A stretch of DNA of 39,137 nucleotides from assembly GCA_016201185.1 (NCBI GenBank), contig JACQDG010000022.1, positions 1 through 39,137 of the forward strand. The letters run 5' to 3'. The translations under genes and the position numbers were made by a program. The notes beneath the pieces are model-generated. The model made no database searches, had not been told where the DNA came from, and saw only the letters and a program-made list of their open reading frames with translations. This document shows, in pieces, positions 10,362 to 38,963 of this stretch (the first letter of the stretch is position 1; every line of letters begins with the position of its first letter). The DNA comes from Acidobacteriota bacterium (GTDB taxonomy: Bacteria > Acidobacteriota > Terriglobia > Bryobacterales > JACQDG01).

Positions 10362-11522
10362 TCACGGCTTAGGGCCCGTGCCCCGATAAATGATCTTACC
10401 CCTCTGCAGCGTGTATCTAACCTTCGAGAAAGCTGCGATCTCCCCCGCCGGATCGCCGGCCAGCACCACGAGGTCGGCCTCCATTCCCGGGGCCACTCTG
10501 CCCGTGCGCTTCGATCCGCCGAAGCGCTCGGCCGGGGCGGTGGTCAGCGAAGCCAGGATTTGGCGGAAGCTTAAACCCGCCTCCGCCATCAGGCGGTATT
10601 CGTCGGTAGGATCGTAGTCCGACATATACCCCACGTCGGTGCCGAAAAGAATTTGCCCGCCTGCTTGCGAAAAAGCCCGAAGCTGGTCCTCACCCACACG
10701 GAGGAACTCGCTGGTTCCCTTCTCGCTGGCGTGTTTGCGTTCCAGCTCAAACTTCCACAACTTAAGCGTGGGCATCAGGGCCAGGGTGGTGTGAGCGAGG
10801 ACATCGACGCCCCCCTCGACCGCCGCCTTCAAGCCGGCCAGGTTCTGGGGATGCGCCAGGACCAGCTTGCCTTGCTGGTGTGCCTCCGCCGTGACGGCCT
10901 TCACCAGCTCCAGCGGCATCGCTCCCTCGACCCCCGCCGAGGCGGAAAAGATCTTGATCCCATCAGCGCCGTCCTTCAGTTTCTCCCGAACCATGGCCGT
11001 GGCCTCCTCGGGAGTGCGAACCTCGGGAAGCCGCAACGGCCGGAGGTAAACGGGAGTGCCGCCCTTCTTCACCAGTCCCGGGCCGGTCGTGAAAATTTTC
11101 GGTCCGGCGATCTGGCCGGCTTCGATGCGCCTTCGAATGGCCGCGGTGTTCCCAAAGAACGACCCCGTGTCGAAGACCGTGGTGAAGCCATATCTGGTGA
11201 ACATCTCCTCAAGCTGTCGCGCCAGCCGGGAGGAGGGCTGGACAGCGGCGAGCAGCCACTTCATCTCGGAAAAATGCACGTGGCTGTTCCAGAAGCCCGC
11301 CGTCACCGTAAGCCCCGTGCAATTGAGCACCCTAATGCCAGCGGAAAGCTGGACCTTGTCTTTCTCGTCCACGGCGGCGATCCGACCGTCGCGGATCCAC
11401 ACGACTCCGTTTTGAATTGGGTTTGAATCCGGCGAGGGATAGATCTTCCCGCCCACCAGCGCCAGATCGCCCGTGGCCGCCCAGGCGCAACAGGCGAATA
11501 GACCAAGCAACAGAGGCTTCAT
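10362..11522 (-). CDS. Secreted amidohydrolase-family metallohydrolase
   Basis: 386 aa with a signal peptide (MKPLLLGLFACCAWAA), the HxH metal motif (NSHVHF), and GKI...DGRIAAV typical of the amidohydrolase_1 N-terminus. The ATGA overlap (11519..11522) couples it to the upstream glycosyltransferase gene. Confidence 0.75.
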   Translation of the reverse strand: MKPLLLGLFACCAWAATGDLALVGGKIYPSPDSNPIQNGVVWIRDGRIAAVDEKDKVQLSAGIRVLNCTGLTVTAGFWNSHVHFSEMKWLLAAVQPSSRLARQLEEMFTRYGFTTVFDTGSFFGNTAAIRRRIEAGQIAGPKIFTTGPGLVKKGGTPVYLRPLRLPEVRTPEEATAMVREKLKDGADGIKIFSASAGVEGAMPLELVKAVTAEAHQQGKLVLAHPQNLAGLKAAVEGGVDVLAHTTLALMPTLKLWKFELERKHASEKGTSEFLRVGEDQLRAFSQAGGQILFGTDVGYMSDYDPTDEYRLMAEAGLSFRQILASLTTAPAERFGGSKRTGRVAPGMEADLVVLAGDPAGEIAAFSKVRYTLQRGKIIYRGTGPKP

Positions 11523-13891
11523 ACCGTGAAGAGGTTACGGTATGCTTGGCGGAATTGTTCCCGGTTGTATTCGGCCTCGACTCTGTGACGCCCCGCCTGT
11601 CCCATGTCGGCCCGCCGCCGCGGGTTCTCGAGTAACTCGTGTAACGCGGCAGCAAAGCGAGCGGCCTCTCGCGGCCCGGGCTCAACCAGCACGCCGGCGC
11701 CCGAATTCACTACTTCACCGGCCGCTCCTGCCCGAGAACACACCACCGGCCTTCCGCTGGCGAAGGCTTCGAGCACAATCAGCGGAATGCCCTCAGCCTG
11801 CGACGGAACCACCACTACATCTGCTTCAGCGAGCAGCGGCGGCATTTCTTCGACATGACCCAAGAGCGCGAACAGCGGTTCCAGGCCCGCCCGGCCTACT
11901 TGATCGCGAAGCCGGTTGCTTTCCGGACCGTCGCCCGCCACCAGAAAGCGAAAGTCGCGGGTGGGGCGGAGCCGCGCTATCTCGACGGCCATATCGACCA
12001 GCAGCAAAGGACGTTTGACCGGGTCGAGTCGCCCGGCAAAAAGGATGTTCTTGTTCTCTCCGGCCGCTCTGGGCGGAGCGGGGCGGAAGCGCTCGAGATC
12101 GATCCCGTTGCGGATCAGGCGGATCTTTTCCTCCGGCGTTCCCAGTTCCAGCATCCGCCGACGGCCGGCCTCGGATATCACCACCCGCACATCAATCTGG
12201 GCCGCCACCGGTGCGGTTGCGGAGACGAAATCCCAGCGCGGGTCCACCGCGTGGATCAGATCGACAATCTTCACCCGTGGCAACTCCCGGCGGATGTGCG
12301 GGATGGCGCTGTAGGCGGCGAGCGAGTTTTGAATCAGCAGGGCATCAAGCTCCCAGTTAACGGCCATGGAACATACCGCCGCGATCATCCGCTCCGGCAG
12401 CACCAGCACAGCGAGATCATAAACGTGGGAGACGGCCTGCCCCCACCGCGGCCGCCAACGGGAATCCTGTGATTGGGTGGCGATCAGGAACAACTCGTGA
12501 CCCTCGTCGCCGATAGCGCGAGCTACCTCCAGGAGCACGCTCTCGGCCCCGCCCGGGCCGAGATGAGGGGTAACCAAGGCCATGCGCCGCAGGCCGCCCG
12601 AAAGCCGGGGCAAATAGGGCAGAGGCTCGACCAGTGCCCCGGCAGCCAGCACGGATTGCGGCTGGAATCGAAGATAAAAGCTCAGGTCAAAGATGGAACG
12701 CCCAGCGGCCCGGTTGATGCGTTCCTTCACGCGCAGTGGGATCAGCCGCGAAACCGAGCGCAGCGGATGCCGCACCCAGGAATCAAGTGAGGTGAGCTCG
12801 GCATTCACCAGGTGGCGCTGGAGCCGCTCCAGCCGGAGCGGCCAGGCTGTTGGCGGTTCCCCCCGCGGTGACGCGATTGGGCCTTCCGCTTTCTGCGCCA
12901 GCTCCGACAAGCTGCCCGTTGCAGCCAGCGCCTGGCGCGAAACGGCCAGCGAATCGTCGGGGAGCCGCAATACGCCATGGCCGCCCCAAACCGCCAGCGC
13001 GCAAAGCTCGGCGCTGTGCGCATCGGCCGCCTGTCCGGCAGAAGGTACCAAGAATGCTTTCGCGCTCGATTGCTCGAGCGCTCGGCGCGGATCGGTCGTG
13101 GGAAGCCTCTCCCAATCCTCAATGGTCTGGCTTGTTTCGAGTTCCGCCCCCAGCACGCACACCGCCGGCGCCCAGCGCGACTTGATCCTGGCCCGTCCTT
13201 CCCGGGAATAAAGCGCGGGATGGTTACTACGAATCTTTTCGACCAGCTCCCGGTGATGCTCTCTCGACAGGCTCAGCAGCGAGCGGCCGTGCTTCCGGTA
13301 ATGGAAAAGCGGCCGGGGCAGGCGTCTTCCGAAGCGGGCTCGCTCGGCCAGGCGGAGCCAGAAGTCCCAGTCTTCGTAACCCAGCCGCATCGACTCGTCG
13401 TAGCCACCAGCCATCTCCCAATCGGCCAGCCGGATCAGAGAAGCGTAAATCAACGTGTTTTGCCACAGCAGGTCGTAGAGGTTGTAGTCGCGCAGCCGCT
13501 CGACGTACCGCGTGTCGCCGAAAACCTGGTAGTCGGTGTAGACGAAAGCGGCCTCCGGGTGGGCTTCAAGCGCGGCCACGCATTCGGCGATGAAGGCGGG
13601 CTCGAGCCGGTCGTCGGCGTCCAGCGGAACCACGTAAGCCCCGCCGGCGGCCCGGACGCCTGTATTTCGCGCTGCAGGCAAGCCCCGGTTCGCTTGTTCG
13701 AGATAGCGCCTGACGCGGCCCCGCAGCGATTCGAGGAGTCGAAGCCCCTCGGGCTCGTTCGTGCCGTCGTTCACCAGGATGATTTCGATGGGTTGGTGCG
13801 TCTGCGCCTCGACGCTGGATAGGGTCTCTTGCAAAAGGTGAGTCGGGTTGTAGCAGGGGATGACGACTGAGACCAGGGCCGGCGAGAGCAT
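11519..13891 (-). CDS. Bifunctional glycosyltransferase, GT2 (GT-A) N-terminal + GT4/GT1 (GT-B) C-terminal
   Basis: The track ORF extends to 14329, but that part overlaps the upstream gene and is Arg/Pro/Ala junk. I start at ATG 13891 (MLSPALVSVVIPCYNP), 5 nt after the upstream stop. GT2 motifs: VIPCYN, LVNDGT, PLDADD, YEDWDFWLR. GT4 motifs: FAGRLDPVKR, AEGIPLIVLEAFASGRPVV. Confidence 0.85.
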   Translation of the reverse strand: MLSPALVSVVIPCYNPTHLLQETLSSVEAQTHQPIEIILVNDGTNEPEGLRLLESLRGRVRRYLEQANRGLPAARNTGVRAAGGAYVVPLDADDRLEPAFIAECVAALEAHPEAAFVYTDYQVFGDTRYVERLRDYNLYDLLWQNTLIYASLIRLADWEMAGGYDESMRLGYEDWDFWLRLAERARFGRRLPRPLFHYRKHGRSLLSLSREHHRELVEKIRSNHPALYSREGRARIKSRWAPAVCVLGAELETSQTIEDWERLPTTDPRRALEQSSAKAFLVPSAGQAADAHSAELCALAVWGGHGVLRLPDDSLAVSRQALAATGSLSELAQKAEGPIASPRGEPPTAWPLRLERLQRHLVNAELTSLDSWVRHPLRSVSRLIPLRVKERINRAAGRSIFDLSFYLRFQPQSVLAAGALVEPLPYLPRLSGGLRRMALVTPHLGPGGAESVLLEVARAIGDEGHELFLIATQSQDSRWRPRWGQAVSHVYDLAVLVLPERMIAAVCSMAVNWELDALLIQNSLAAYSAIPHIRRELPRVKIVDLIHAVDPRWDFVSATAPVAAQIDVRVVISEAGRRRMLELGTPEEKIRLIRNGIDLERFRPAPPRAAGENKNILFAGRLDPVKRPLLLVDMAVEIARLRPTRDFRFLVAGDGPESNRLRDQVGRAGLEPLFALLGHVEEMPPLLAEADVVVVPSQAEGIPLIVLEAFASGRPVVCSRAGAAGEVVNSGAGVLVEPGPREAARFAAALHELLENPRRRADMGQAGRHRVEAEYNREQFRQAYRNLFTV

Positions 13892-13896: not shown

Positions 13897-16437
13897 TCAC
13901 CGGGCCGCCGGGGCGGGCGGCTGCTCGGCGGCGGGTAGAGGCAAGAAAATGGCTTTCTGTTTCCCATCCATCGGGAGGCTGCTCGACAGAATCTTCAGCC
14001 GGTCGAGCGGCTGCGCAATATCGAAAACGCCGGCCCGCAAAAGTCTGGCCTGAGCGCTGAGCTTCGAGATGTCGCGCACAACATCCTGGATTACCACCAA
14101 CGGGCTGCCGCGCGGCGGAGGAGCGAGCTTGTCGAGGCCGATGTCCTGGTCGAACGAGAGCAGGATAGGCGTTTCCGACGGCTGGTCGGCCACGGCGTGG
14201 CCGAAGAAGCGAAGCTGGGCGCTGGCCGGGCGGGGCGCTTCCCACCGCAGGCGCAGCCAGGCAACCTCGCCTGCGCGGCGCAGCGAGTAGCCCGTCAGGC
14301 GCAGCCCCCCCTCGAAGGCCACGTCGCAATCGACGACTGGGGCTGGGGCCATCTTGAACGTGTAAACCGCCGTCGGCCCGGCATTAGAAATTACTACAGC
14401 TGCCGTGTAGTCGTCCTTGAGGGGCAGGGTGGAAGCCCAAACCGGCACCCGCAGGCGGGTTTCCGGATCAAACAGGCCGAGCCGCAATTGCGTCCCCTTT
14501 GCGGTCGCCGCCCGTAGAATCAGGTGGCGGGTCTCCTGGCCCTCGTCTCCCGGCTGCCACTCGGACACCGGCGGACTGCCGTGCAGGATCTCGTGGTCCA
14601 GGGAGCCGAGCAGACTGCCCTGGGCATCGACAATATGCGCGAAGCACCGCAGCGGCGCCGGCGGGGGATTCCGGCAGCGCCAGCGAAGCCCCAGGTTGAA
14701 AAGCCCTTCCCTTTCGGAAAACTTCAGGTCCGTCACCTGGAGATAGTTCCCAAAGTTCAGGTCGACTTTGTCGAGAGAAAGCGGCGGGGCGCCCTGGCGA
14801 GCGGGAAAGAAGGCATCCGGTCCACCGTCGGCGGTGTTTTCAAAGATGCGGATGCGGCCCCCGTCCGGAGCCTCGATGCCCGGCTGGACTTCCCGGAACA
14901 GCGGCCCGTGCAGCAGGAAATCGATGGTCCGCGGGCCGCTGCGGAAGCGGTCGGGGGGTTTTTGTGTGCCACCGTCCTTGAACAGGAAATACTGCACGCC
15001 GCTCATGATCTTGTGGATTTGATCCGTATCGGCGGTGTAGGCGGTGGTGTAAAACTCGAATGGATACTTCAGCAGGGCCGCCTCCAAATCCAGGTCGTTG
15101 CTGTTGAAGGACCAGGTGTCGGCCCCCAAGCCGATGATGAGCTTCGAGCCGGGGCCGATTCGCTCGCGATGGGCGATCCGTTGCAATGCCTCGCCCAGAG
15201 GCCAGTGCTGGGGATTGGGCGGAAACGCGTAGGCCGTGGCCGGAGAAAAAATCGACCACCGGCCCAGCCCCATGGTGCGCGAGCCGAAAATGGGGAAGGA
15301 ATTTCCCAACAGGATCAAGGACGTGCCACCGGCCACGGCAGCCAGCAGCGGGCGGCGAAGGATGGGCCAGCGTTCGAGCAAACCGTCGAACAACGCCGCC
15401 GCCACAAGTGCAAAGGCCGGCAGTATGGGCGCGATCAGGCGCACATCGCGGTTGTCCGAAAGCGCAAAAACCGGCAGCGTAGCCACCCAGGGAACCACGT
15501 AAGCCAGGGCGCCGCGAAGAAAATTGTCCCGCCGCACCGCCGCCCAGAAAACTAATCCCGCCGCGCCCACTAGCAAGTGAATCGCCGAAACGCCATGGTT
15601 GGCGAACATGAAAAAGTAATCGACCGCCATGCCCACCGGCGACTGCCGCTCGACCGGATGCACCGGCATGAAGTAGCTTTCCTGGAACGAGCGGCGGGTC
15701 ACTGCTTCCCAGTTGTGGTAATACCATGGTCCGGCCAGGATTATAGCCGGGGCCGCGATCAGCGCCACGTCCGCCACCAGCCGGCCGATTCGCCGCCCCC
15801 TCGCCCGCACCAGAATCACCGCCACGACCGGTCCCACAAACAGCGGGAAGGTGATCTTCATCAGCAGCCCGAGCCCGCACACCACCCCCAGCCACAGCAG
15901 CAAGCGATTCCTGCCCGTCCGCTCCCATTCGGCCAGGACCAGGCAGGCCGACACCACCAGCGCGGTAAGCCAGTATTCCGGCAGGTAGAGGCGCGACAGA
16001 CCGGCCAGCATTGGCGAAGTGAGTGCCAGGAACAGGGCCAGCAGCGAGATCCTTTCGCTGAAAAATTTGCGGCAGAACCGGTACAGCGCCGCTGACACAA
16101 CGATCAAGGCGACAGCATTGACCAGATAAAGGACAAACGTGGATCGCCCTAGCAAGCAAAAAAACGGCAGGGGCAGAACGGTGATCAGCGGGGCTTTGTC
16201 TCCCAGGGCGTGCTGGAAGCCTTTCCAGTAGGCCGCCAATCCTTGCTCGGCGAAGCGATCGAACAGACGCAGCGAGCTGGCCAGGTACCAACTGTCGTCC
16301 CAGCGGGTGGGGCCCTTTTCCGCCGCGGCCCAGGTGAAGAGCAGAGCCAGAGCGGCAGCCACGACCAGGTAAAAGAGAAAAGGAAATCTGGCGGAGTGGA
16401 AATCGGCGGGCGGGGAGACGGCGGGAGCCTCGCTCAT
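13897..16437 (-). CDS. GT-C membrane glycosyltransferase, GT39/PMT_2-like (paralog D), with two tandem beta-rich C-terminal domains
   Basis: I start at ATG 16437 (MSEAPAV...), which overlaps the upstream stop by 1 nt (TGATG). It shares DDSWYLASSLRLF, KAPLITVLPLPFF and GLGLLMKITFP with paralogs A-C and has many hydrophobic segments. The C-terminal region (about 13897..14765) contains two copies of the L..Y....L.L.W.......F.H..D pattern. Confidence 0.75.
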   Translation of the reverse strand: MSEAPAVSPPADFHSARFPFLFYLVVAAALALLFTWAAAEKGPTRWDDSWYLASSLRLFDRFAEQGLAAYWKGFQHALGDKAPLITVLPLPFFCLLGRSTFVLYLVNAVALIVVSAALYRFCRKFFSERISLLALFLALTSPMLAGLSRLYLPEYWLTALVVSACLVLAEWERTGRNRLLLWLGVVCGLGLLMKITFPLFVGPVVAVILVRARGRRIGRLVADVALIAAPAIILAGPWYYHNWEAVTRRSFQESYFMPVHPVERQSPVGMAVDYFFMFANHGVSAIHLLVGAAGLVFWAAVRRDNFLRGALAYVVPWVATLPVFALSDNRDVRLIAPILPAFALVAAALFDGLLERWPILRRPLLAAVAGGTSLILLGNSFPIFGSRTMGLGRWSIFSPATAYAFPPNPQHWPLGEALQRIAHRERIGPGSKLIIGLGADTWSFNSNDLDLEAALLKYPFEFYTTAYTADTDQIHKIMSGVQYFLFKDGGTQKPPDRFRSGPRTIDFLLHGPLFREVQPGIEAPDGGRIRIFENTADGGPDAFFPARQGAPPLSLDKVDLNFGNYLQVTDLKFSEREGLFNLGLRWRCRNPPPAPLRCFAHIVDAQGSLLGSLDHEILHGSPPVSEWQPGDEGQETRHLILRAATAKGTQLRLGLFDPETRLRVPVWASTLPLKDDYTAAVVISNAGPTAVYTFKMAPAPVVDCDVAFEGGLRLTGYSLRRAGEVAWLRLRWEAPRPASAQLRFFGHAVADQPSETPILLSFDQDIGLDKLAPPPRGSPLVVIQDVVRDISKLSAQARLLRAGVFDIAQPLDRLKILSSSLPMDGKQKAIFLPLPAAEQPPAPAAR

Positions 16438-17891
16438 CAGAAGAATTTGAATTTCCGGGTGGCGAACAGGCACATCCGCAACAGCAGCCACCCGTGACGG
16501 AAGCGGCTGATGTTGGTCGAGCCGTAGGAGCGCTCCCGGTACCGGATCGGAATCTCGACGATCTTCAGATTCTGTTTGGCCGCCCCGAACAGCAGGTCGA
16601 AGTCGCCGAACGGATCGAAATTGCCGAAGTAGGAGCGGTTGGCGGCGATCCTCTCATAATCCTCCCGCAGCAGGACCTTGGTGCCGCACAAAGTGTCCTT
16701 GATGGGCTGCTCCAGCAGCCAGGAGAAAATCTTGCTGAAGAATTTGTTCCCCAACAGGTTCAGGTAGCGCATGGCTTCCTTTTCCATGGGGTAGACCAGA
16801 CGGCAGCCGTTGATGAACTCCCCGGTGCTGCTTTCGATGGCGTCGAAGAAGCGGGGTAGATCTTCCGGCGCCACGGTCAGGTCAGCGTCGAGGATCAGCA
16901 GCACGTCGCCGGTGGCGGCGGCAAAGCCCTTGCGCACGGCGTCACCTTTGCCGCGCCCCTCGCCTTGCTCGATCAGCTTCAACTGGTGGTGGCCGCGATA
17001 GCGGGCGATCACGGTCCGGATTTCCTCGAGCGTGCCATCGGTCGAGTTGCCTTCCACAAAAATAATTTCCGTGCGCGTCCCCATTATGGGCGTGCGCTCG
17101 ACCACCGAGGCGATGTTGCCCCGCTCGTTGCGGCACGGCACGACGAGAGAGCAGGAATACCGCGGCCGCTCGCCGGCCGGCCGGGGCCGTGCCACAAGAT
17201 ATTGCTGCAACCCAAGGCGGCGCAGCAACGGTACGAGCTCGACCAGCCGGTTCACCACTTCAGAAACCAGTGGCAGGTGCAACGGCAACGGCATCCGCCG
17301 GCCGCCCCTGATCACTTCGAAGCCGCTCAGGTCGAGCAGGTTCTCCAAGTCCTGGTGGGTAAGCCAGTTTTGCAGGTTCTGCCGGGTCTTCAGTCCTAGC
17401 CGCTCGACCGCCTTCAGCACCGGCTCCCAAATATAGTTGTAGAAGTTGACGATCACGCGGGTCCGGGAGTGGCAGACCTTGCTGAGCTGTTGGAACGCAG
17501 CCTGCACGTCGTACAGGTCGCCCACCAAGTCGGAGAGGATGACATAGTCAAAAGGCTCGGCCAGAGCCGGGTGGGGCTCGATCTCGTGGGCGTCCATCCG
17601 CACGAAGCGGAGGTGCGGATGGCGCTTTTGCGCCACCTCCACCATGCGACTGCTCAGGTCCAGGCCCACCCCGTAGGCCGGATTCAGCGCCGCCAGCAGG
17701 TCGCCGTTGGCGCACCCGATCTCCAGCACCCGCGAGCCCTGCGGGACCAGGAACCGGCAAAGCCGGATAATACCGTCGAAGTAGTTCCGGTTTTTGCGTT
17801 CGGCCCACTGCGAGGCCAGCGCATCGTAATAGCCGGTCAGGTCGCGGTGGGCGTGGCTGGCGCGGCCGGCCGTGGCAGTCGGGGTCGGCAT
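16437..17891 (-). CDS. Bifunctional class I SAM methyltransferase + GT2 glycosyltransferase
   Basis: 484 aa. MT motif I is VLEIGCANGDLL. The GT2 part has SLVVPCRNERGNI, FVEGNSTDGT and ILDADLTV, resembling dolichyl-phosphate sugar synthases. Confidence 0.85.
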   Translation of the reverse strand: MPTPTATAGRASHAHRDLTGYYDALASQWAERKNRNYFDGIIRLCRFLVPQGSRVLEIGCANGDLLAALNPAYGVGLDLSSRMVEVAQKRHPHLRFVRMDAHEIEPHPALAEPFDYVILSDLVGDLYDVQAAFQQLSKVCHSRTRVIVNFYNYIWEPVLKAVERLGLKTRQNLQNWLTHQDLENLLDLSGFEVIRGGRRMPLPLHLPLVSEVVNRLVELVPLLRRLGLQQYLVARPRPAGERPRYSCSLVVPCRNERGNIASVVERTPIMGTRTEIIFVEGNSTDGTLEEIRTVIARYRGHHQLKLIEQGEGRGKGDAVRKGFAAATGDVLLILDADLTVAPEDLPRFFDAIESSTGEFINGCRLVYPMEKEAMRYLNLLGNKFFSKIFSWLLEQPIKDTLCGTKVLLREDYERIAANRSYFGNFDPFGDFDLLFGAAKQNLKIVEIPIRYRERSYGSTNISRFRHGWLLLRMCLFATRKFKFF

Positions 17892-18568: not shown

Positions 18569-18583
18569 CGCGGCAGATCCTCG

Positions 18584-19786: not shown

Positions 19787-19827
19787 AACACTCCCCGCCA
19801 GCTATGCGGCGCTGCGGGAACGTCAGG

Positions 19828-19889
19828 GGGTGCGCGACATACCGGCTCGGAATGGCCTTCGGAGCCTCTCACATTTATGTCGCGCACCC
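19828..19889. promoter_or_regulatory. 14-bp perfect inverted repeat (34-nt spacer) in the divergent promoter region of the glycosylation operons
   Basis: gggtgcgcgacata (19828..19841) is the exact reverse complement of tatgtcgcgcaccc (19876..19889). It lies inside the 218-nt gap between the divergent starts at 19786 and 20005. Confidence 0.4.
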
Positions 19890-32732: not shown

Positions 32733-33713
32733 ATGCCCGGCGTCTCCATTGTCGTGCCAGTACTAAACGAACGGGAAAACATCGGGCCGCTCATCGCCCG
32801 GTTGGAAGCCGCGGTGGAGGCCGATCTCGAGGAGATTCTCTTCGTGGACGACGGGTCGATCGACGGCACGGCGGAGCTTCTGGCCGAGCTCTGCCGGCGA
32901 TATCCGCGGGTGAAGGCTCTGGTGTTCACCCGCAATTTCGGCCAGCAGGCGGCGCTGAGCGCGGGCCTGGACTTCGCCCGCGGGGACGCCGTCGTGCTGA
33001 TGGACGGAGACTTGCAGCACCCGCCCGAGCTCGTGCCGCGTATGATCGAGTTGTGGCGTGGGGGCGCCGCCATCGTCTCGACCATTCGGCGCGCCCAAAG
33101 CGACGCCGGGTGGTTCAAGCGCGCCGGAACCGCGCTGTTTTACCGCGCCATCAACCTCATTTCGGAGACCCCGATCGAGCCCCACGCCGCCGACTTCCGG
33201 CTGCTGGCGCGGCCCGTGGTGGAGCAGTTGCGCCGCCTGGAAGAGCGGCGGCGCTTCTTGCGCGGCCTGATCCACTGGACCGGCTATCGGCAGGCCACCC
33301 TGGAGTTCGACGCCCCGGCGCGCGCCGCTGGGCGCACCAAGTATTCCGCTTCGCGCATGGCCGCCCTGGCCCTGGACGCCATCCTTTCCTTCTCCCGCTT
33401 TCCGCTCCGGGTCGGGTTTTACGCCGGCCTGTTGCTATGGCTCGTCTCCTGCGTTTACGCGGCCTACGCCCTTTACGTGAAGTTCGTCAAGGATACGGTG
33501 GTGCCCGGCTGGACCTCGATCATCATCGTGGGCACGCTGATCGGCGGGTTCCAGAGCATCCTGCTCGGCTTGATCGGCGAGTACGTGGGTAGACTATACG
33601 AGGAGACGAAACGGCGGCCGCTGTACCTGGTGGCGCGAGCTTACGGCCTGGAATCTGCGCCGGAGGGGCCTGGCGGGCCCGGCGACAGCGCCCTATCGCC
33701 AGGCGGTACATAG
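32733..33713 (+). CDS. Polyprenyl-phosphate sugar synthase, GT2, GtrB/ArnC/DPM1-like
   Basis: The track ORF starts at 32334 inside the previous gene. I start at ATG 32733 (MPGVSIVVPVLNERENI). An alternative GTG at 32718 would overlap the upstream stop as GTGA. Motifs: FVDDGSIDGT, TRNFGQQAALSAGL, MDGDLQHPPE. Two C-terminal TM helices (FYAGLLLWLVSCVYAAY, IIIVGTLIGGFQSILLGLIGEY) are as in GtrB/ArnC. Confidence 0.85.
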   Translation: MPGVSIVVPVLNERENIGPLIARLEAAVEADLEEILFVDDGSIDGTAELLAELCRRYPRVKALVFTRNFGQQAALSAGLDFARGDAVVLMDGDLQHPPELVPRMIELWRGGAAIVSTIRRAQSDAGWFKRAGTALFYRAINLISETPIEPHAADFRLLARPVVEQLRRLEERRRFLRGLIHWTGYRQATLEFDAPARAAGRTKYSASRMAALALDAILSFSRFPLRVGFYAGLLLWLVSCVYAAYALYVKFVKDTVVPGWTSIIIVGTLIGGFQSILLGLIGEYVGRLYEETKRRPLYLVARAYGLESAPEGPGGPGDSALSPGGT

Positions 33714-35368
33714 TAAATCCAGATCGACTTCCCCGCCCGCGCCGTTGGCATCCGTTCGCGCAACCATTTAAACTCGGACCGGTCATTGTATACGCCGATC
33801 AGCTTGTTGAGGCTGATGGCGCTCCAGCCTTCCACTGGCTTAAATGGCGGAAGCTCTATAGCTCGCACTCCCACTTTGCCTGGAATCGTCACTCCAAAAT
33901 AGTTCAAATGGATCGTTTCGATGTGGTGCTCCTGCTGAAAGCGGCCCAGGCGCGCCAGGTCCTGGCCCCAGTCCAGGTTGCTGTCCAGCAGGAACCTCTC
34001 TTCTCGTCCCCGCGCAATCTGGTTGAAGTAAGCCAGGTAGTCCGGGTGGGCGGCAACAGATTCCCCCACCTGCCAGACTGCTAGCGCCGTTGCCGCCAGG
34101 GCGAGCGTCCGCCGCCGGCCGGGCAGGCGCTCCGGATCGGCCCACAGGCCCGCAGCCAGAATGGCGAAAAGCGGATAAATCGGCAGCACGTGCCGCACCC
34201 CGATATTCAGGTTGGCCTGGGTGCTCAAACCCAGGATGACAGCCACCGCCAACAGTGGAGAAAGCGTGCCCCGCGCGCCGGCGGCGTACCGCCCGGTGGC
34301 ATATAGAGCAATTCCCATACCCGCCAGCGCCAGCATCGGAATCGTGGTCTTCACTCCCACCGCGACCGGGAAGTAATACCACCAGCCGTGGTCCGTGATG
34401 TGGCCGAGCAGATAGGCCTTCTGCCCCTGCCGGTTGTGGGACAGCACGTCGATGATGCCTCTGACAAACTGATGGGCGGGCAGGCGTCTGCGGCCCAAAG
34501 TACGCAGCATCAGCCCGGGCGCGCTTTGTTCGGCGCCCCCGCGGAATGGGCCGCGGTATTGATGGCCGGGAGGCAGGATGATTCCCACGTCGAATAAATA
34601 CCCGGCCCACACCAGGAAGAAGAACACCGCGCAAAACACCACACCGCGGCCGGCGCTCTTCCCGATAGCGGCGCCCCTGGGAGCTCCCTCTCGCCTCCAT
34701 CGTCTCAATCCGGCCTCCACAAAATACAGCAGCGCCAGCGGCGGGAGAAAATAGAGGGCGGAAAACTTGGAGAGGGCCGCCAGGCCGAAAGCGGCTGCCG
34801 ACGCCAGGCAGTAGCGCAGCCCGGGCTGCTCGCTCCAGCGCCAAAAGAAATAAGCCGCCGTCACGACGGTGGCGGCGGCCGCCAGGTCCAGCGTTGCCAG
34901 GGAAGCATGGCCGATCAGCGTGGGAGAGCAGACCAGGAGCAGGCAGGCCACTAACCCCGCCCGAACCCCGTAAAGCCGCCAGCTCCAGTGGTAAACAATG
35001 CAAAAAAGCAGGACCGCATAAGCCAGGTTTCCGGCTCGGGCCAGTGCCAGGGATTTCCAGTAGAAGTCGGTGCTGCCGAACGTCCAGGCCCCGTGGCCCC
35101 AGATTTCGTTGTGCTCATTTACGCGCAGGCCGGCCAGGAAAAACGGCAGCACGGCCACCATGAACCTGGCCAGAGGCGGATGCTGGGCCTCGACGGTGTA
35201 GGTCCTTTTCTGCAAGATTTCCAGCCCGGCGCGGATGTGAGTGTTCTCGTCCATGGAATCGTTGAACACCCGGTAGGTGAGCACGATGCGGCCGATAAAC
35301 AGGAATAGCAGCGCCGCCAGCAGAAAACGCTGCCAGGTTCGGGCGTGACTTTGTGGGGACAAGTCCAA
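33641..35368 (-). CDS. GT-C glycosyltransferase, classical PMT_2/ArnT-like (phospholipid-carrier-dependent), protein G
   Basis: 575 aa with FNDSMDENTHIRAG (the DE..H loop-1 motif), QHPPLARF and many TM segments. The start is a TTG at 35368 or a TTG at 35362; the latter has AGGA 7 nt upstream. Confidence 0.75.
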   Translation of the reverse strand: MDLSPQSHARTWQRFLLAALLFLFIGRIVLTYRVFNDSMDENTHIRAGLEILQKRTYTVEAQHPPLARFMVAVLPFFLAGLRVNEHNEIWGHGAWTFGSTDFYWKSLALARAGNLAYAVLLFCIVYHWSWRLYGVRAGLVACLLLVCSPTLIGHASLATLDLAAAATVVTAAYFFWRWSEQPGLRYCLASAAAFGLAALSKFSALYFLPPLALLYFVEAGLRRWRREGAPRGAAIGKSAGRGVVFCAVFFFLVWAGYLFDVGIILPPGHQYRGPFRGGAEQSAPGLMLRTLGRRRLPAHQFVRGIIDVLSHNRQGQKAYLLGHITDHGWWYYFPVAVGVKTTIPMLALAGMGIALYATGRYAAGARGTLSPLLAVAVILGLSTQANLNIGVRHVLPIYPLFAILAAGLWADPERLPGRRRTLALAATALAVWQVGESVAAHPDYLAYFNQIARGREERFLLDSNLDWGQDLARLGRFQQEHHIETIHLNYFGVTIPGKVGVRAIELPPFKPVEGWSAISLNKLIGVYNDRSEFKWLRERMPTARAGKSIWIYYVPPGDRALSPGPPGPSGADSRP

Positions 35369-35376: not shown

Positions 35377-37068
35377 TCAACGGCCGCCTTCCTCGGCCCA
35401 TCGGCGGGGGTGGACCGCTTCCGGCGGGCCTTGCCGCTCCTGGTGAGAAAACGGAGCGGCGAAGTAGATGTCGCTTGCAGCCAGGTCCAGTTGCTCCCGG
35501 GTGAACTCCCGCGGGGAAGGCGCCGGTCCGGTGTACCCTTTCAGAGGGTAGAGGCGATAGGCGCCGCCGCGGATTTCCTGCGCCAGCAACCGCCGCTCCG
35601 TGACTTCCCCGTTGGCCTCGACCACCAGGACCCAGGAGCGCCGGGGCTCGTCCGGCTTCAGGTCGCGCATGTAGTTGCGGTGGTAGACACGCAGGCGGCC
35701 GGCGTCGCTTACAATTTCGCAGGCCGCTTCCAGGCCGTGGACGCCGGTTACATGCTCGGCGAAAGGGGTCGAGGCCCATCCCGCCAGGAAGGCAAAATGG
35801 GGCGCCGTGCCCAGCCACAGCGGCGTGTTGGAAACGATGATCAGATCGTGCGGTTCGACCGGAAGCTGTCGCAGCCGGGCTGCGATGGCGCGCAGGTTCC
35901 GGGACTGGGGGATCCAACACTGCCCCATGTCGGCGAGAGTCGCCATGGCCAGCCAGCCCGCCAGGGCGGCGGCCAGCGGCATCCGGAGGGCCGGCACAGC
36001 TAGCGCCGCCGTCGCCAGCGCCAGGGCGAGATACGGCGCGGGAACATAGTCGTAACGATACTCATGGGCCCGCAGAAACCAGATCGGGCCGTAGGCCGCC
36101 AGCCACAGGCCGGCGGCCAGCAGGCACGTGCGTAGTGCCGGAGTTTTCTCCGCGTCCGCCCGGCGCAGGCCTAAGAGCGTCACCGCGGCGGCCAGCAGGG
36201 CTGCCGCCCCGGCCTGCCAGGTGAACTGCAGGCGATAAAAGGCCCCGGGCCCCAACCCGGTGAGTCTCCTATAAGTATTTATAATAGCTATGAAATTCTC
36301 CCAGCTTCTCCGGGGCGAGAATTCGTACCGCAGGCCGAAACCCATGGCCATGAGGGGCGCCTTGTTGACGAGCAGTGTGTAGAAGCCCGCCGCCGTCAGC
36401 ACGGTCCCCCATGCCAGCAGGGTGGCCCGCAGACCGGTCTTCGAGCGGAGGAACCAGGCTGTTAATGGAGCGGTCGCCACAAGTAGCCCGAAGACCGGGT
36501 CCCCGGAGAAAAGCGCCAGCACCAGGAACAGCGCCTGCCGCGCCGCCGCTCTTCCCTCCAACCGGCCGGCAACCAGGCTTGCTGCGAGTGAGCGCCAGTA
36601 AAGTACAAACCAGACCGTGGACCAGACGAAGCAGGAGATGTTGAAGCTCCAGAACAAGGCGCTGTGCGCGGCCGGCGCCAGCAGAAACACGACTCCCACC
36701 AGGAAAGCCGGGCGCGACCCGATCCCCAGCCTCTCGAGGGTCTGGCGCAGCAGGATCGCGTTCCACGCGTGTACCAGCAGGATTACGGCAAAGACCACGC
36801 CGGGCGCATAGCCGGCCGCCAGCCAGACCAGATAGCTTGTGAGGAAGCTGAGCCAATAGAAGCGGAACTGGTTGTGGATCAGGTTCTGGAAGATCGCCAC
36901 AGCCACGCGAAACGGTTCCGCCCCGCCGGCATCTCGCGCGGCCTGGTAGCGCTCCAGAATGAACCAGTCATCCAGCACGAACTCGGCATGCGGAAGATAG
37001 ATCAGGTAAATCGAAGCCAGGAGGAGGTAGGCTATGGCGGCCAGAAGCTGGTAGCTGGGTCGGCGCAA
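35377..37068 (-). CDS. Polytopic membrane protein, GT-C-like (unassigned), protein H; paralog of 30991..32721
   Basis: 563 aa. A TTG start is the only in-frame start before the first TM. It has the LDDW motif after TM1 and a soluble C-terminus. Confidence 0.6.
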   Translation of the reverse strand: MRRPSYQLLAAIAYLLLASIYLIYLPHAEFVLDDWFILERYQAARDAGGAEPFRVAVAIFQNLIHNQFRFYWLSFLTSYLVWLAAGYAPGVVFAVILLVHAWNAILLRQTLERLGIGSRPAFLVGVVFLLAPAAHSALFWSFNISCFVWSTVWFVLYWRSLAASLVAGRLEGRAAARQALFLVLALFSGDPVFGLLVATAPLTAWFLRSKTGLRATLLAWGTVLTAAGFYTLLVNKAPLMAMGFGLRYEFSPRRSWENFIAIINTYRRLTGLGPGAFYRLQFTWQAGAAALLAAAVTLLGLRRADAEKTPALRTCLLAAGLWLAAYGPIWFLRAHEYRYDYVPAPYLALALATAALAVPALRMPLAAALAGWLAMATLADMGQCWIPQSRNLRAIAARLRQLPVEPHDLIIVSNTPLWLGTAPHFAFLAGWASTPFAEHVTGVHGLEAACEIVSDAGRLRVYHRNYMRDLKPDEPRRSWVLVVEANGEVTERRLLAQEIRGGAYRLYPLKGYTGPAPSPREFTREQLDLAASDIYFAAPFSHQERQGPPEAVHPRRWAEEGGR

Positions 37069-37937: not shown

Positions 37938-38963
37938 CTATGGATGATAGGCCGGTAGCCCAGCGACAGTTGGCAGCGGAGGCGCGGGAAGCGCCCGGAG
38001 CCGCAGCCGCTCGAAGGCGATCGTTTCCCGGATCATCTGGTCGAGGGAGGTCAGCGGGGACCAGCCGGTGAGGCGCTGCATCTTACAAATACAAGGGACC
38101 CGGCGCCGCATGTCCTCAAAGCCCTTCTCAGGATAGGCCTCGTGATACGGGACGCGGACGACCGGGCTGGCCGAGCCGGTGATCCGCTTGACGCGCTCGG
38201 CGAGTTCCAGGATCGAGATTTCCTCCGGTCCTCCGATGTTGAATATTTCTCCCTCCGCCTGCCGCGAGCCCAGCAGCAAGAGCAGGGCCTCTACGCAGTC
38301 CCGCACGAAGGCGAAATTCCGCGTCTGGCGGCCGTCGCCGAACACCCGGATCGGCTCCCCGGCCAGCGCCGCGCAGACGAAATTGGGCAGCACCATGCCA
38401 TAGCGTCCGGCCTGCCGCGGCCCCACGATGTTAAAAAAGCGCGTGATGATCACCGGCAATCCGTAGGTTTCCGCGTAGGCCAGGGCCAGAAACTCGTCGA
38501 GCTTTTTCGAAGTGGCATAGGACCAGCGGGTGACCGGAGCCGGGCCCAGCACCGAATCGGCCGTTTCGCAGAGCGAGTCCGCATCGTTCTTGCCGTAGAC
38601 TTCCGAGGTGCTTGCCACCAGCGCCTTTCTGCCCAAGCGTGTGGCGGCCCCCAGGACGATGTCCGTGCCGTTCACGTTGGTCCTGAGGGCGCCGAGCGGA
38701 TGGTCAAGAACATACCGCACGCCGACGGCCGCCGCCAGGTGAACGACCAGCCCGCATTTTTCAACCAGCCGACGGACCAGGGCGGCATCGAGCACGCTGC
38801 CTTTCACGAACTCGAATTTCGGGTGGCCGATCAGTCCGCCCAGGTTCTCGATCGAGCCCGTGCTCAGGTCATCCAGCACCACCACGGGCCGGCCGTCGGC
38901 CAGCATGGATTCGGCCAGATGAGAGCCGATAAAGCCCGCGCCGCCGGTAATGAGCGTTTTCAC
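37938..38963 (-). CDS. NAD-dependent sugar-nucleotide epimerase/dehydratase (extended SDR; ArnA C-terminal / UDP-glucuronate decarboxylase-like)
   Basis: 341 aa with the motifs ITGGAGFIGSH, STSEVYG and YATSKKLDE (YxxxK). HPKFEFVKGSV and GPAPVTRWSYATSK resemble the ArnA decarboxylase domain as I remember it. The GTG start overlaps the upstream stop (GTGA). Confidence 0.8.
   Translation of the reverse strand: MKTLITGGAGFIGSHLAESMLADGRPVVVLDDLSTGSIENLGGLIGHPKFEFVKGSVLDAALVRRLVEKCGLVVHLAAAVGVRYVLDHPLGALRTNVNGTDIVLGAATRLGRKALVASTSEVYGKNDADSLCETADSVLGPAPVTRWSYATSKKLDEFLALAYAETYGLPVIITRFFNIVGPRQAGRYGMVLPNFVCAALAGEPIRVFGDGRQTRNFAFVRDCVEALLLLLGSRQAEGEIFNIGGPEEISILELAERVKRITGSASPVVRVPYHEAYPEKGFEDMRRRVPCICKMQRLTGWSPLTSLDQMIRETIAFERLRLRALPAPPLPTVAGLPAYHP

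What the first reader, a model, noticed from the sequence alone, without database searches (positions are those of the whole stretch)
11519..38963. Glycoconjugate supercluster with eight GT-C-like membrane proteins, one lipid-phospho-sugar synthase, fused cytoplasmic enzymes, and no recognisable exporter, polymerase or initiating transferase
About 27 kb is packed with glycosylation genes arranged around a divergent promoter region (19787..20004) and a convergent junction (about 33.7 kb).

Seen directly:
- Four GT39/PMT_2-like paralogs (D at 13897..16437, A/B/C at 23133..29010) share D(D/E)xWYL(E/A)(S/T)SL and KAPLI(S/T)VLP motifs.
- One classical PMT_2/ArnT-like protein (33641..35368) is present.
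- Three further polytopic proteins (E, F, H) have a DD motif right after TM1.
- A single GtrB/ArnC-like synthase (32733..33713) could supply a polyprenyl-P-sugar donor.
- The cytoplasmic enzymes are all fusions: MT-GT2-GT4, GT2-GT4 and MT-GT2.
- Both divergent operons carry the same domain inventory (MT, GT2, GT4, GT39-like) in different fusion states.
- Most gene junctions are 1-4 nt overlaps (ATGA, GTGA, TGATG).

I could not recognise Wzx, Wzy, Wzz, an ABC transporter, GtrA, WecA/WbaP-type initiators or an O-antigen ligase. The locus therefore does not fit the Wzy-dependent, ABC-dependent or synthase-dependent polysaccharide schemes.

So many periplasm-facing GT-C enzymes fed by one lipid-sugar synthase suggests extensive extracytoplasmic glycosylation, of proteins or of a pre-existing polymer, by a system without a described model.
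Basis: partly seen in the sequence, partly recalled or inferred. Interest (0 to 1): 0.8.

Follow-up and report, generated by a model that had tools for sequence, protein, structure and literature searches.

The report
Acidobacterial glycan cluster with eight GT-C enzymes
A 25.5-kb gene cluster, conserved in uncultured soil Acidobacteria (Bryobacterales), encodes eight membrane glycosyltransferases of the GT-C type, three of them from two families that have no database model, so it most likely builds or decorates an unknown surface polysaccharide on the outer face of the inner membrane.

Summary
Window 11519-37068 is a densely packed glycosylation cluster. Five membrane proteins pass Pfam PMT_2. 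The three unassigned ones (29007-30950, 30991-32721, 35377-37068) are also GT-C: they give high-confidence AlphaFold models whose credible PDB matches are STT3, AglB, ArnT, Pmt, AftA/B and DPY19, they have an invariant DD after TM1, and profile comparison links them to the PMT_2 paralogs. No Wzx, Wzy, ABC transporter, GtrA or phosphoglycosyl transferase is found in the window or in the visible flanks of four related loci.

The interpretation needs three corrections.
- There are two candidate polyprenyl-P-sugar synthases, not one. The MT-GT2 fusion is DPMS/ArnC-like and is present wherever its side of the locus is visible. The GtrB-like gene is missing from several related loci.
- The MT-linker-GT2-GT4 protein has the terminator/spacer/dual-GT layout described for ABC-transporter-dependent O-polysaccharide assembly.
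- Described models do exist: mycobacterial LM/LAM/arabinogalactan assembly and three-component periplasmic glycosylation.

A distant relative of the F family sits inside a classical Wzx/Wzy/Bac_transf locus, which points to a polysaccharide acceptor.

Verdict: a new variant of a known kind, with two unmodelled GT-C families. The product is unknown. Interest is moderate.

The parts
11519..13891 (-). Cytoplasmic dual-domain glycosyltransferase, GT2 (res 8-206) + GT4 (res 446-775), 790 aa. Paralog of the GT2-GT4 part of 20005-23136.
   Evidence: Pfam Glycos_transf_2 95.8 bits, Glycos_transf_1 104.5 bits, Glyco_transf_4 52.5 bits. 40% identity (GT2 domain) and 26% identity (GT4 domain) to 20005-23136. 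Present in L006, L007, L016 and L021.
13897..16437 (-). D: GT-C (PMT_2) membrane glycosyltransferase, 846 aa. About 11 hydrophobic segments, then a soluble C-terminal region of about 370 aa with no family match.
   Evidence: PMT_2 55.6 bits, Glyco_transf_22 39.8 bits, PMT 23.0 bits. TM count. hhalign to the A/B/C family gives 100% probability. It always follows MT-GT2 in related loci.
16437..17891 (-). MT-GT2 fusion, 484 aa: a class I SAM methyltransferase plus a DPMS/ArnC-like GT2 domain. No TM helix; hydrophobic/basic C-terminal tail. It is the invariant candidate polyprenyl-P-sugar synthase, or possibly an initiator.
   Evidence: Pfam. NCBIfam best hits are AglJ (1.5e-28) and Dol-P-hexose transferase, both below the equivalog cut-offs. 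PDB best hit is PfDPMS 5mlz at 1.2e-13 (full protein; 4.4e-14 for the GT2 domain alone), then ArnC; the alignment includes the DADLxxxPE signature. 73-83% identical across Bryobacterales and 60-64% identical in other phyla.
17978..18568 (-). 196-aa ORF with no family match. Specific to this window; absent from L006, L007 and L021. Coding status uncertain.
   Evidence: No Pfam or NCBIfam hit. Only a non-significant resemblance to the C-terminal domains of D and A.
18584..19786 (-). Single-domain GT2 glycosyltransferase, 400 aa. Specific to this window.
   Evidence: Glycos_transf_2 66.6 bits. The gene is absent between MT-GT2 and the divergent gene in L006, L007, L009, L011 and L021.
19787..20004 (.). 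218-bp non-coding gap between the divergent operons.
   Evidence: No sigma-70 consensus site was found. That promoters lie here is inferred from gene orientation only.
20005..23136 (+). MT / heptad-rich linker / GT2 / GT4 protein, 1043 aa. Candidate chain-terminating methyltransferase fused to a two-module polymerase.
   Evidence: Pfam Methyltransf_11 72.7 bits (res 64-158), Glycos_transf_2 105.5 bits (397-535), Glycos_transf_1 102.7 bits (847-1013). The GT2 domain's best PDB hit is chondroitin polymerase at 1e-20. Residues about 255-330 give the top crude heptad scores. Same layout as K. pneumoniae O7 ORF6 (PMC11231755). The MT domain appears to be missing from the orthologs in L003 and L021 and, by ORF length only, L009 (781 and 772 aa products).
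23133..25262 (+). A: GT-C (PMT_2), 709 aa, with a C-terminal extension of about 150 aa.
   Evidence: PMT_2 49.3 bits. 54-55% identical to B and C.
25259..26935 (+). B: GT-C (PMT_2), 558 aa. Lacks the C-terminal extension.
   Evidence: PMT_2 42.5 bits. Identities.
26932..29010 (+). C: GT-C (PMT_2), 692 aa, with the C-terminal extension.
   Evidence: PMT_2 46.9 bits. Identities.
29007..30950 (+). F: GT-C-fold membrane protein from a family with no Pfam or NCBIfam model, 647 aa. DD at residues 37-38; C-terminal beta-sandwich domain.
   Evidence: No family hit. AF2 pLDDT 91.5. Foldseek PDB hits: STT3A 3e-5, Pmt4 1e-4, ArnT, AglB, DPY19, AftB, Pmt1/2, AftA. 48 homologs, all from Acidobacteria/Bryobacterales. 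142 representatives at E<=1e-30.
30991..32721 (+). H: GT-C-fold membrane protein from a second unmodelled family, 576 aa (the public gene call is 561 aa). Invariant D27 D28 W29.
   Evidence: AF2 pLDDT 93.5. The ten best Foldseek hits are all STT3, AglB or ArnT, with probability 0.97-1.00. hhalign to the F family 98.3% and to the A/B/C family 94.3%.
32733..33713 (+). GtrB/ArnC-type polyprenyl-P-sugar synthase, 326 aa: a GT2 domain plus two C-terminal TM helices. An accessory gene, since several related loci lack it.
   Evidence: PDB GtrB 5ekp 5e-76 over the full length, ArnC 1e-40. NCBIfam PgfS 1.5e-69, below cut-off. TMs at 231-249 and 263-281. Missing from L003, L009, L012 and L014.
33641..35368 (-). 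Short PMT_2 GT-C, 575 aa. Its 3' end overlaps the convergent GtrB-like gene by 73 nt.
   Evidence: PMT_2 40.2 bits, Glyco_transf_22 26.5 bits. Conserved as a convergent pair with E in L001, L003, L009, L012 and L014.
35377..37068 (-). E: paralog of H (GT-C fold by homology), 563 aa, with a DD motif (VLDDW) after TM1.
   Evidence: 29% identity to H over 563 aligned positions, E 8e-43. Scores 497 bits against the H-family profile.

Best explanation
The cluster makes a cell-surface polysaccharide or lipoglycan in two compartments.

Inferred cytoplasmic step: the paralogous dual-module Leloir enzymes GT2-GT4 (11519-13891) and MT-linker-GT2-GT4 (20005-23136) build a repeat-unit backbone on a lipid carrier, and the N-terminal methyltransferase caps or methylates it. 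The backbone crosses the inner membrane using a primer enzyme and a transporter or flippase encoded elsewhere in the genome.

Inferred donor step: two GT2 enzymes make polyprenyl-phosphate-sugar donors. One is the invariant DPMS-like MT-GT2, translationally coupled to D. The other is the accessory GtrB-like protein.

Inferred periplasmic step: eight GT-C enzymes use those donors to add branches or side chains to the glycan. They fall into four groups: D plus A/B/C, the short PMT_2, F, and H/E. The copy numbers of F, A-type and H vary between genomes, which would diversify the product.

Shown: the domain and fold identities, the paralogy, the conserved synteny, and the absence of export and initiation genes in the locus and in the flanks that are visible.

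Inferred: the donors, the acceptor, the topology, and the order of steps.
For: - GT-C identity of all eight membrane proteins: Pfam PMT_2 for five; AF2 plus Foldseek for H and F; a chain of profile links D-ABC-sPMT and ABC-H-F; acidic DD/DE after TM1 in every one.
- Donor synthases: GtrB-like, full-length match to a solved GtrB; MT-GT2 aligned to DPMS and ArnC with the DADLxxxPE signature, with a 1-nt overlap to D in the window and a shared boundary base in L006, L007 and L021.
- Cytoplasmic polymerase-like enzymes: a GT2 domain most similar to chondroitin polymerase, and an MT/heptad linker/two-GT layout like K. pneumoniae O7 ORF6.
- Polysaccharide acceptor: a distant F-family member (P0083) lies between Wzx (Polysacc_synt) and Wzy_C genes in a locus that also carries Bac_transf, GT2/GT4 and DegT genes. 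F has a C-terminal beta-sandwich domain, and D, A and C have long soluble C-terminal extensions of unknown fold. A C-terminal carbohydrate-binding module is described in the GT-C of three-component systems (PMC11127046) and in EmbC (PMC3044687, title listed).
- The cluster is one conserved unit in about nine other independent assemblies, with variable paralog numbers.
Against: - No transporter, flippase or phosphoglycosyl transferase is encoded in the locus, or in the single visible 4-8 kb flank of each of four related loci. The pathway as stated therefore depends on genes nobody has seen.
- The MT domain of the large fusion appears to be missing in L003, L009 and L021, so methyl capping cannot be essential.
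- The coiled coil rests on a crude heptad score only.
- MT-GT2 homologs at about 61% identity lie in polysaccharide loci of other phyla with no recognisable GT-C within 8 kb. Its role as a donor synthase for GT-Cs is therefore not secure.
- No sugar is identified. No experiment exists for any member.
Confidence: 0.55

Rival explanations
1. Self-contained GT-C assembly line, like mycobacterial LM/LAM/arabinogalactan or the ER-lumen ALG steps. A short lipid-linked primer is made in the cytoplasm. It could be initiated on polyprenyl monophosphate by the DPMS/AglJ-like MT-GT2 and extended by the GT2-GT4 enzymes, or it could be built on a membrane glycolipid. The primer is flipped, and most of the polymer is then built outside the cytoplasm by the eight GT-C enzymes from polyprenyl-P-sugars. 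No Wzx/Wzy, ABC transporter or PGT is needed.
For: - No exporter or initiator is seen in the locus or in the visible flank of each of four related loci, apart from a generic RND (ACR_tran) efflux gene next to L003.
- MT-GT2 is invariant, and its best NCBIfam match is AglJ, the Dol-P-hexose initiating enzyme of Haloferax N-glycosylation.
- Eight to nine or more GT-C genes per locus in the fully visible loci, from four families, is more than any described decoration system. It resembles the GT-C load of LAM/AG synthesis (PMC3485146).
- The soluble C-terminal domains of D, A, C and F could be carbohydrate-binding modules like that of EmbC (PMC3044687).
Against: - PMT_2/ArnT-type enzymes are known as single-sugar transferases.
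- The AglJ match is far below the equivalog cut-off (100 bits against 325).
- The MT/linker/dual-GT architecture is known from ABC-dependent pathways (PMC11231755).
- A distant F relative works inside a normal Wzy-type locus.
- Only part of each genome was seen.
Confidence: 0.2
2. Protein O-glycosylation system. The PMT_2-type enzymes and their relatives transfer sugars from polyprenyl-P-sugars to Ser/Thr of secreted or envelope proteins, as in actinobacterial Pmt/Ppm1 or the S. mutans Pgf system (PgfS/PgfM1/PgfM2).
For: - D reaches the Pfam PMT gathering score, but only marginally (23.0 bits against 22.7).
- F's second-best Foldseek hit is fungal Pmt4.
- The GtrB-like protein's best NCBIfam match is PgfS at 1.5e-69.
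Against: - The PgfS match is below cut-off (234 bits against 500).
- The Foldseek hits spread evenly over OST, ArnT, Aft and DPY19 enzymes, so they show the fold only.
- The large cytoplasmic dual-GT polymerase-like proteins have no role in PMT-type glycosylation.
- No conserved candidate acceptor protein lies in the locus.
- The distant F relative sits in a polysaccharide locus.
Confidence: 0.1
3. Decoration battery only. The GT-Cs and the two synthases modify a polymer made entirely elsewhere (LPS O-antigen or core, lipid A, or an EPS). The cytoplasmic GT2-GT4 proteins make an unrelated product.
For: - Three-component systems are modular and often map apart from the backbone genes (PMC11127046).
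- An H-family gene can occur alone, outside any cluster (L022).
- ArnT is among the best structural matches.
Against: The GT2-GT4 genes are linked to the GT-C genes, with 4-nt overlaps or short gaps at the junctions, in every locus. That argues for one pathway.
Confidence: 0.1

Closest known systems
Three-component extracytoplasmic glycosylation systems (GtrA/GtrB/GtrC of Shigella/Salmonella; CsbB/GtcA/YfhO; GacI/J/K/L; Citrobacter youngae PPPRS / MATE flippase / GT136, PMC11127046)
   Same: A GT2 polyprenyl-P-sugar synthase with two C-terminal TM helices (32733-33713) sits next to GT-C transferases. The GT-Cs have soluble C-terminal domains, comparable to the CBM of GT136. The action would be post-polymerization, on the periplasmic face.
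   Different: - No flippase gene (GtrA, MATE or SMR type) is present.
- There are eight GT-Cs instead of one.
- A second synthase, DPMS-like and without a TM helix, is fused to a methyltransferase.
- The GtrB-like gene is dispensable in related loci.
- F and H/E belong to no described GT-C family model.
Mycobacterial/corynebacterial LM, LAM and arabinogalactan assembly (Ppm1; PimE, MptA-D, EmbA-C, AftA-D; PMC3485146, PMC3044687)
   Same: Many GT-C enzymes are fed by polyprenyl-P-sugars. Cytoplasmic GT4-type steps come first. Foldseek hits include AftA, AftB, EmbB and PimE.
   Different: - A different phylum, and a diderm one.
- The genes form one compact cluster instead of being dispersed.
- There is no sequence-level orthology; only the fold is shared.
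- No DPA pathway genes are present.
- The cytoplasmic enzymes here are large dual-module fusions.
Terminator / coiled-coil ruler / polymerase proteins of ABC-transporter-dependent O-polysaccharide assembly (K. pneumoniae O7 ORF6, O12 WbbB, E. coli O9a WbdD/WbdA; PMC11231755, PMC3482155)
   Same: 20005-23136 has an N-terminal methyltransferase, a heptad-rich helical linker and two C-terminal GT modules. The paralogous GT2-GT4 resembles a dual-module polymerase.
   Different: - No Wzm/Wzt and no kinase domain.
- The linker is short, about 75-90 residues.
- The coiled coil has not been shown by a proper predictor.
- The MT domain appears to be absent from some orthologs.
- No sequence homology to these proteins was tested; the comparison is of architecture only.
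ArnC/ArnT lipid A modification and Pfam PMT_2 / GT83-GT39-type GT-C enzymes
   Same: The synthase and transferase fold types match. A, B, C, D and the short PMT_2 pass the PMT_2 model. ArnT is a top structural match for H and F.
   Different: NCBIfam ArnT matches are negligible (E 1e-3 to 5e-3, 15-17 bits against a cut-off of 567). No arnA/B/D/E/F genes are present. Calling A-D 'GT39' is not justified: only D reaches the PMT (PF02366) cut-off, and only marginally.

Membership tests
GT-C glycosyltransferase superfamily (for E, F, H) | Polytopic inner-membrane protein with 8-13 TM helices followed by a soluble extracytoplasmic domain | tested here: met
   Nine hydrophobic segments in each protein. 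The AF2 models show a helical bundle up to about residue 405-415, then an alpha/beta or beta domain.
GT-C glycosyltransferase superfamily (for E, F, H) | Conserved acidic residue(s) at the start of the first extracytoplasmic loop, which holds two short helices | tested here: met
   D27 D28 W29 are invariant across the 35 aligned H/E-family sequences. D37 D38 are at least 90% conserved in the F family and invariant in 42 distant members. In both models the motif opens the first of two short helices between TM1 and TM2.
GT-C glycosyltransferase superfamily (for E, F, H) | Fold similarity to solved GT-C structures | tested here: met
   H: the ten best PDB hits are all STT3, AglB or ArnT, probability 0.97-1.00, TM-score 0.34-0.40. 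F: STT3A 3e-5, Pmt4 1e-4, ArnT, AglB, DPY19, AftB, AftA. No Wzy or WaaL was listed; transporter and receptor hits have probability below 0.2, with one exception at 0.54. The TM-scores are moderate, so this shows the fold class, not a family. E was not modelled; it is included through its homology to H.
GT-C glycosyltransferase superfamily (for E, F, H) | Use of a polyprenyl-phosphate-linked sugar donor | not testable with these tools
   Needs an enzyme assay.
Pfam PMT_2 (PF13231) for A, B, C, D and 33641-35368 | Score above the curated gathering threshold (26.1 bits) | tested here: met
   49.3, 42.5, 46.9, 55.6 and 40.2 bits respectively.
GT39 protein O-mannosyltransferases (Pfam PMT, PF02366) | Score above the PF02366 gathering threshold (22.7 bits) | tested here: inconclusive
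   D scores 23.0 bits, which is marginal. The short PMT_2 scores 17.3 bits, below the cut-off. A, B and C give no hit.
GtrB/ArnC-type polyprenyl-P-sugar synthase (32733-33713) | GT2 catalytic domain followed by two C-terminal TM helices, with a full-length match to a solved member | tested here: met
   5ekp GtrB 5e-76 over residues 4-310; ArnC 1e-40. TMs at 231-249 and 263-281. The NCBIfam equivalog cut-offs for PgfS and ArnC are not reached, so the sugar specificity is unknown.
DPMS/AglJ-type polyprenyl-P-hexose synthase (GT2 domain of 16437-17891) | Catalytic-domain homology with the DADLxxxPE signature | tested here: met
   5mlz 4.4e-14 over the whole catalytic domain (GT2 domain as query). 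LILDADLTVAPEDLPRF aligns to VVMDADLQHPPEVIPKL.
DPMS/AglJ-type polyprenyl-P-hexose synthase (GT2 domain of 16437-17891) | Curated equivalog score (AglJ TIGR04182, 325 bits) and membrane anchoring | tested here: not met
   100 bits against 325. No TM segment. The soluble enzyme GpgS also matches, at 4e-8 (GT2-domain query). It works like a DPMS-type enzyme at best; membership is not established.
Three-component periplasmic glycosylation system | Dedicated flippase for the lipid-linked donor (GtrA, MATE or SMR type) | tested here: not met
   No such Pfam or NCBIfam hit in any gene of the window. No unassigned gap large enough for a gene in 11519-37068. None appears in the Pfam lists of the related loci.
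ABC-transporter-dependent polysaccharide pathway | Wzm/Wzt transporter and a PNPT initiator in or next to the locus | tested here: not met
   Absent from the window, which is the whole contig, and from the visible flanks of L001/L006, L003 and L021. The rest of the genomes could not be searched.
ABC-transporter-dependent polysaccharide pathway | Terminator enzyme separated from the polymerase modules by a coiled coil | tested here: inconclusive
   The MT domain and the two GT modules are shown by Pfam. The linker, residues about 255-330, gives the highest crude heptad scores among the soluble proteins (above the 99th percentile). No validated coiled-coil predictor or structure model was available.
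Wzy-dependent pathway | Wzx flippase, Wzy polymerase, PCP/Wzz | tested here: not met
   No Polysacc_synt, Wzy_C or Wzz hits. E, F and H are GT-C, not Wzy/WaaL.

The most novel reading that the evidence does not exclude
Bryobacterales Acidobacteria may carry a self-contained, compact GT-C assembly line. It would be a Gram-negative counterpart of mycobacterial lipoarabinomannan/arabinogalactan synthesis. A primer would be started by the invariant DPMS/AglJ-like MT-GT2, possibly on polyprenyl monophosphate, and extended by the dual-module GT2-GT4 enzymes. Eight or nine GT-C enzymes, including two previously unmodelled families, would then polymerise and branch it outside the cytoplasm. No Wzx/Wzy, ABC transporter or phosphoglycosyl-transferase initiator would be involved.
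Probability: 0.17. Interest if true: 0.8.

Novelty: new variant of a known kind. Interest (0 to 1): 0.5.

Why it matters
Acidobacteria are among the most abundant soil bacteria, and their envelope glycans are almost unstudied. This cluster defines two GT-C families (F and H/E) that have confident structure models and invariant catalytic-type motifs but no Pfam or NCBIfam model.

It also gives a compact, conserved set of genes in which GT-C-based extracytoplasmic glycan construction could be studied outside the Actinobacteria. If the missing export and initiation steps are truly absent from the genome, it would add a polysaccharide assembly route for diderm bacteria.

The highly conserved MT-DPMS-like fusion (60-64% identity across phyla) is an uncharacterised enzyme of wider interest in its own right.

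Tried and rejected
- Exact-sequence look-ups of three window proteins found nothing. The window is a complete 39,137-bp contig, so its own flanks cannot be read.
- Sequence-profile searches of the H and F families against the PDB gave only chance hits. D alone gave none.
- The C-terminal domains of D, A and F and the 196-aa ORF have no Pfam match even at E<=10. The idea that the 196-aa ORF is a free copy of the D/A C-terminal domain is not significant.
- The only locus outside Acidobacteria from the genome scan (L017, labelled Alphaproteobacteria) gave no informative neighbours.
- I considered that E, F and H are Wzy, O-antigen ligase or transporter proteins and rejected it. All credible structural matches are GT-C.
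- I considered that the GtrB-like gene is the central donor synthase and rejected it. It is absent from at least four related loci.
- No sigma-70-type promoter was found in the divergent gap and no terminator at the convergent junction. The window has no Rfam family and no tRNA.
- A literature search found no paper on this cluster or on these families in Acidobacteria.

Full report
**What is there**

The window is a complete 39,137-bp contig: its own protein P0001 is recorded on a contig of exactly that length. Its closest relatives are MAGs labelled Acidobacteria, Terriglobia or Bryobacterales.

Positions 1-11.5 kb hold housekeeping genes:
- an AlaX-like tRNA-editing protein
- a TIG-domain secreted protein
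- a ParA-like ATPase
- an AlbA_2 protein
- SAICAR synthase
- a beta-eliminating lyase
- an amidohydrolase

From 11519 to 37068 every gene but one, a 196-aa ORF with no family match, is a glycosylation gene.
- Minus strand: GT2-GT4 (11519-13891), D (13897-16437), MT-GT2 (16437-17891), a 196-aa ORF (17978-18568) and a GT2 (18584-19786).
- A 218-bp gap (19787-20004).
- Plus strand: MT-GT2-GT4 (20005-23136), A, B and C (23133-29010), F (29007-30950), H (30991-32721) and GtrB-like (32733-33713).
- Convergent, minus strand: a short PMT_2 (33641-35368) and E (35377-37068).

**The eight membrane proteins are all GT-C**

A, B, C, D and 33641-35368 pass the Pfam PMT_2 gathering score. A/B/C are 54-57% identical to each other, and D is 28-30% identical to them.

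E, F and H hit nothing in Pfam or NCBIfam.
- H and E are paralogs (29% identity, E 8e-43).
- The H and F families are homologous by profile comparison (98.3%, E 2.6e-14).
- H also links to the A/B/C family (94.3%, E 1e-7).

AlphaFold models built on family alignments are confident: H has pLDDT 93.5 and F has 91.5.
- For H, the ten best PDB matches are all STT3, AglB or ArnT. DPY19, EmbB and PimE follow further down.
- For F, the matches are STT3A, Pmt4, ArnT, AglB, DPY19, AftB, Pmt1/2 and AftA. Its C-terminal beta-sandwich also hits Ig/ML-type folds.
- No Wzy or WaaL appears, and no credible transporter.

The DD after TM1 is invariant or nearly so in both families and in 42 distant F relatives. 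In both models it opens the first of two short helices in the first loop, which is the GT-C catalytic position.

Both families are small. The word-indexed search found 35 and 48 clusters, all unnamed and all from Acidobacteria. The F profile finds 142 representatives at E<=1e-30 and 1,707 at E<=1e-3 among 1.84 billion proteins. Distant members have almost no Pfam assignment; the few stray hits are to membrane-protein families, at least some of them GT-C-type: DUF6056, PTPS_related, PMT_4TMC and GtrII.

**There are two donor-synthase candidates**

The GtrB-like protein matches solved GtrB over its full length (5e-76) and ArnC (1e-40), and it has the two C-terminal TM helices.

The GT2 half of MT-GT2 is a second candidate.
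- Its best NCBIfam matches are AglJ and Dol-P-hexose transferase.
- Its best PDB match is P. furiosus Dol-P-Man synthase, across the whole catalytic domain, followed by ArnC.
- The alignment includes the DADLxxxPE signature.
- It has no TM helix, and it misses the equivalog cut-offs, so membership of the family is not established.

MT-GT2 overlaps D by one base. It is 73-83% identical among Bryobacterales and still 60-64% identical in other phyla. In the two loci from that group that were examined, it sits in polysaccharide loci with no recognisable GT-C nearby.

**The cluster is a conserved unit**

I searched six-frame ORFs of all fetched loci with my own family profiles. The same cluster appears in about nine other independent assemblies. 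Its layout is:
- [MT-GT2, D, GT2-GT4] on one side
- divergent from [(MT-)GT2-GT4, then F x1-3, A-type x2-3, H x1-2 in varying order]
- then the convergent [short PMT_2, E]

MT-GT2 is present wherever that side is visible. The GtrB-like gene is present in the window, L001/L006 and L007/L008, but absent from L003, L009, L012 and L014. The 196-aa ORF and the GT2 at 18584-19786 are specific to this window.

**The visible flanks hold no polysaccharide exporter**

- In L006 the left neighbour is the same beta-eliminating lyase as in the window.
- To the right of L001: CBS, CbiX, an FAD reductase, GFO_IDH and PDZ genes.
- To the right of L003: CBS, radical SAM, CMD, a nucleoside hydrolase, an adenine glycosylase and an RND pump.
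- Beyond GT2-GT4 in L021: a sulfatase, PFK and DUF362.

The second refutation condition, an exporter or initiator module just outside, is therefore not met within the 4-8 kb that is visible beside each of these clusters. Whole genomes could not be searched.

**Mechanism**

The soluble enzymes look like polymerase modules.
- The GT2 domain of the large fusion is closest to chondroitin polymerase.
- GT2-GT4 is its paralog.
- The large fusion has an N-terminal methyltransferase and a linker of about 75-90 residues, which gives the highest crude heptad scores among the locus's soluble proteins.

K. pneumoniae O7 ORF6 has exactly this layout: methyltransferase, coiled coil, two GT modules. The authors call the coiled-coil terminator a characteristic marker of ABC-transporter-dependent assembly (PMC11231755).

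A distant F-family member (P0083, 28% identity) lies between the Wzx (Polysacc_synt) and Wzy_C genes of a classical locus that also carries Bac_transf. This shows the family in the setting of a polysaccharide locus.

My best reading, at about 0.55, is a two-compartment pathway:
1. The cytoplasmic GT2-GT4 enzymes synthesise a backbone, with optional methyl capping.
2. Genes located elsewhere export or flip it.
3. The eight GT-Cs branch or decorate it extensively in the periplasm, using donors from MT-GT2 and, where present, the GtrB-like enzyme.

Variable paralog numbers fit product diversification.

The rivals are:
- a self-contained LAM-like GT-C assembly line (0.2)
- protein O-glycosylation (0.1)
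- a pure decoration battery for a polymer made elsewhere (0.1)

**Comparison with known systems**

The locus works like the three-component periplasmic glycosylation systems (PMC11127046). In scale it resembles mycobacterial LM/LAM/AG synthesis (PMC3485146, PMC3044687). It differs from these in several ways:
- It lacks a flippase gene.
- It carries eight GT-Cs from four groups in one compact cluster.
- It uses an MT-fused, TM-less DPMS-like enzyme.
- It includes two unmodelled GT-C families.

The label 'GT39-like' for A-D is too specific. They are PMT_2-type, and only D marginally reaches the PMT model.

**Verdict**

The locus is a new variant of a known kind. Interest is moderate (0.5): it is a good, conserved lead into acidobacterial envelope glycobiology and into new GT-C families, but the product, the donors and the acceptor are all inferred.

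Noticed in passing
window 37085-37900 (+); L001 17589-18224; L003 14668-15312: A Cys-rich protein (MTCxIC...CPAL...CxQCCG...CPLDCPYL) lies divergently only 16-19 bp from E in the window, L001 and L003, and is 54-65% identical between them. In the window its first roughly 166 residues run straight into a CbiX domain. In L001 separate CBS and CbiX genes follow it, so the window seems to have a deletion or fusion. The very short divergent gap means at least one promoter must lie inside a coding region.
   Followed up: partly
window 33641-33713: The convergent GtrB-like and short PMT_2 genes overlap by 73 nt at their 3' ends. Both tails are low-complexity and rich in Pro, Gly and Ser. In L001 the orthologs do not overlap (14286 against 14308). 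No terminator-like site is present.
   Followed up: partly
window 17978-19786 (-): A 196-aa ORF with no homolog detected and a single-domain GT2 are inserted between MT-GT2 and the divergent gap only in this contig. An alternative 214-aa ORF (18040-18684) overlaps in another frame, so it is uncertain whether the 196-aa ORF is coding.
   Followed up: partly
L018 8001-10092; L020 8001-9816: MT-GT2 homologs at about 61% identity, from contigs outside the Bryobacterales group (the sources give these two no taxon), are each followed directly by a small stand-alone methyltransferase. They lie in polysaccharide loci (UDP-GlcNAc 2-epimerase, GT4s and a heparinase II/III-like protein in L018; Wzi in L020) with no recognisable GT-C nearby. 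This looks like a widespread, very conserved and uncharacterised enzyme.
   Followed up: partly
L022 10001-11635: An H-family GT-C (P0019, 53% identical to H) occurs as a lone gene among unrelated genes (Omp85, PIN toxin, Rieske). The family is therefore not confined to the cluster.
   Followed up: no
window 2482-4263 (-): A 593-aa predicted secreted protein with a weak IPT/TIG hit and Ala/Gly/Thr/Val-rich repeats of beta-sandwich type lies 7 kb left of the cluster. It has no counterpart next to the related clusters, so it is probably unrelated. It was not examined as a possible glycosylation target.
   Followed up: no
window 4484-6651 (-): A ParA/AAA_31 ATPase and an AlbA_2 / RecG-C-terminal (HATPase_c_4) protein overlap by 4 nt in a stretch of lower GC (0.57 against about 0.64 elsewhere). 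This may be a small mobile or defence-type insertion.
   Followed up: no
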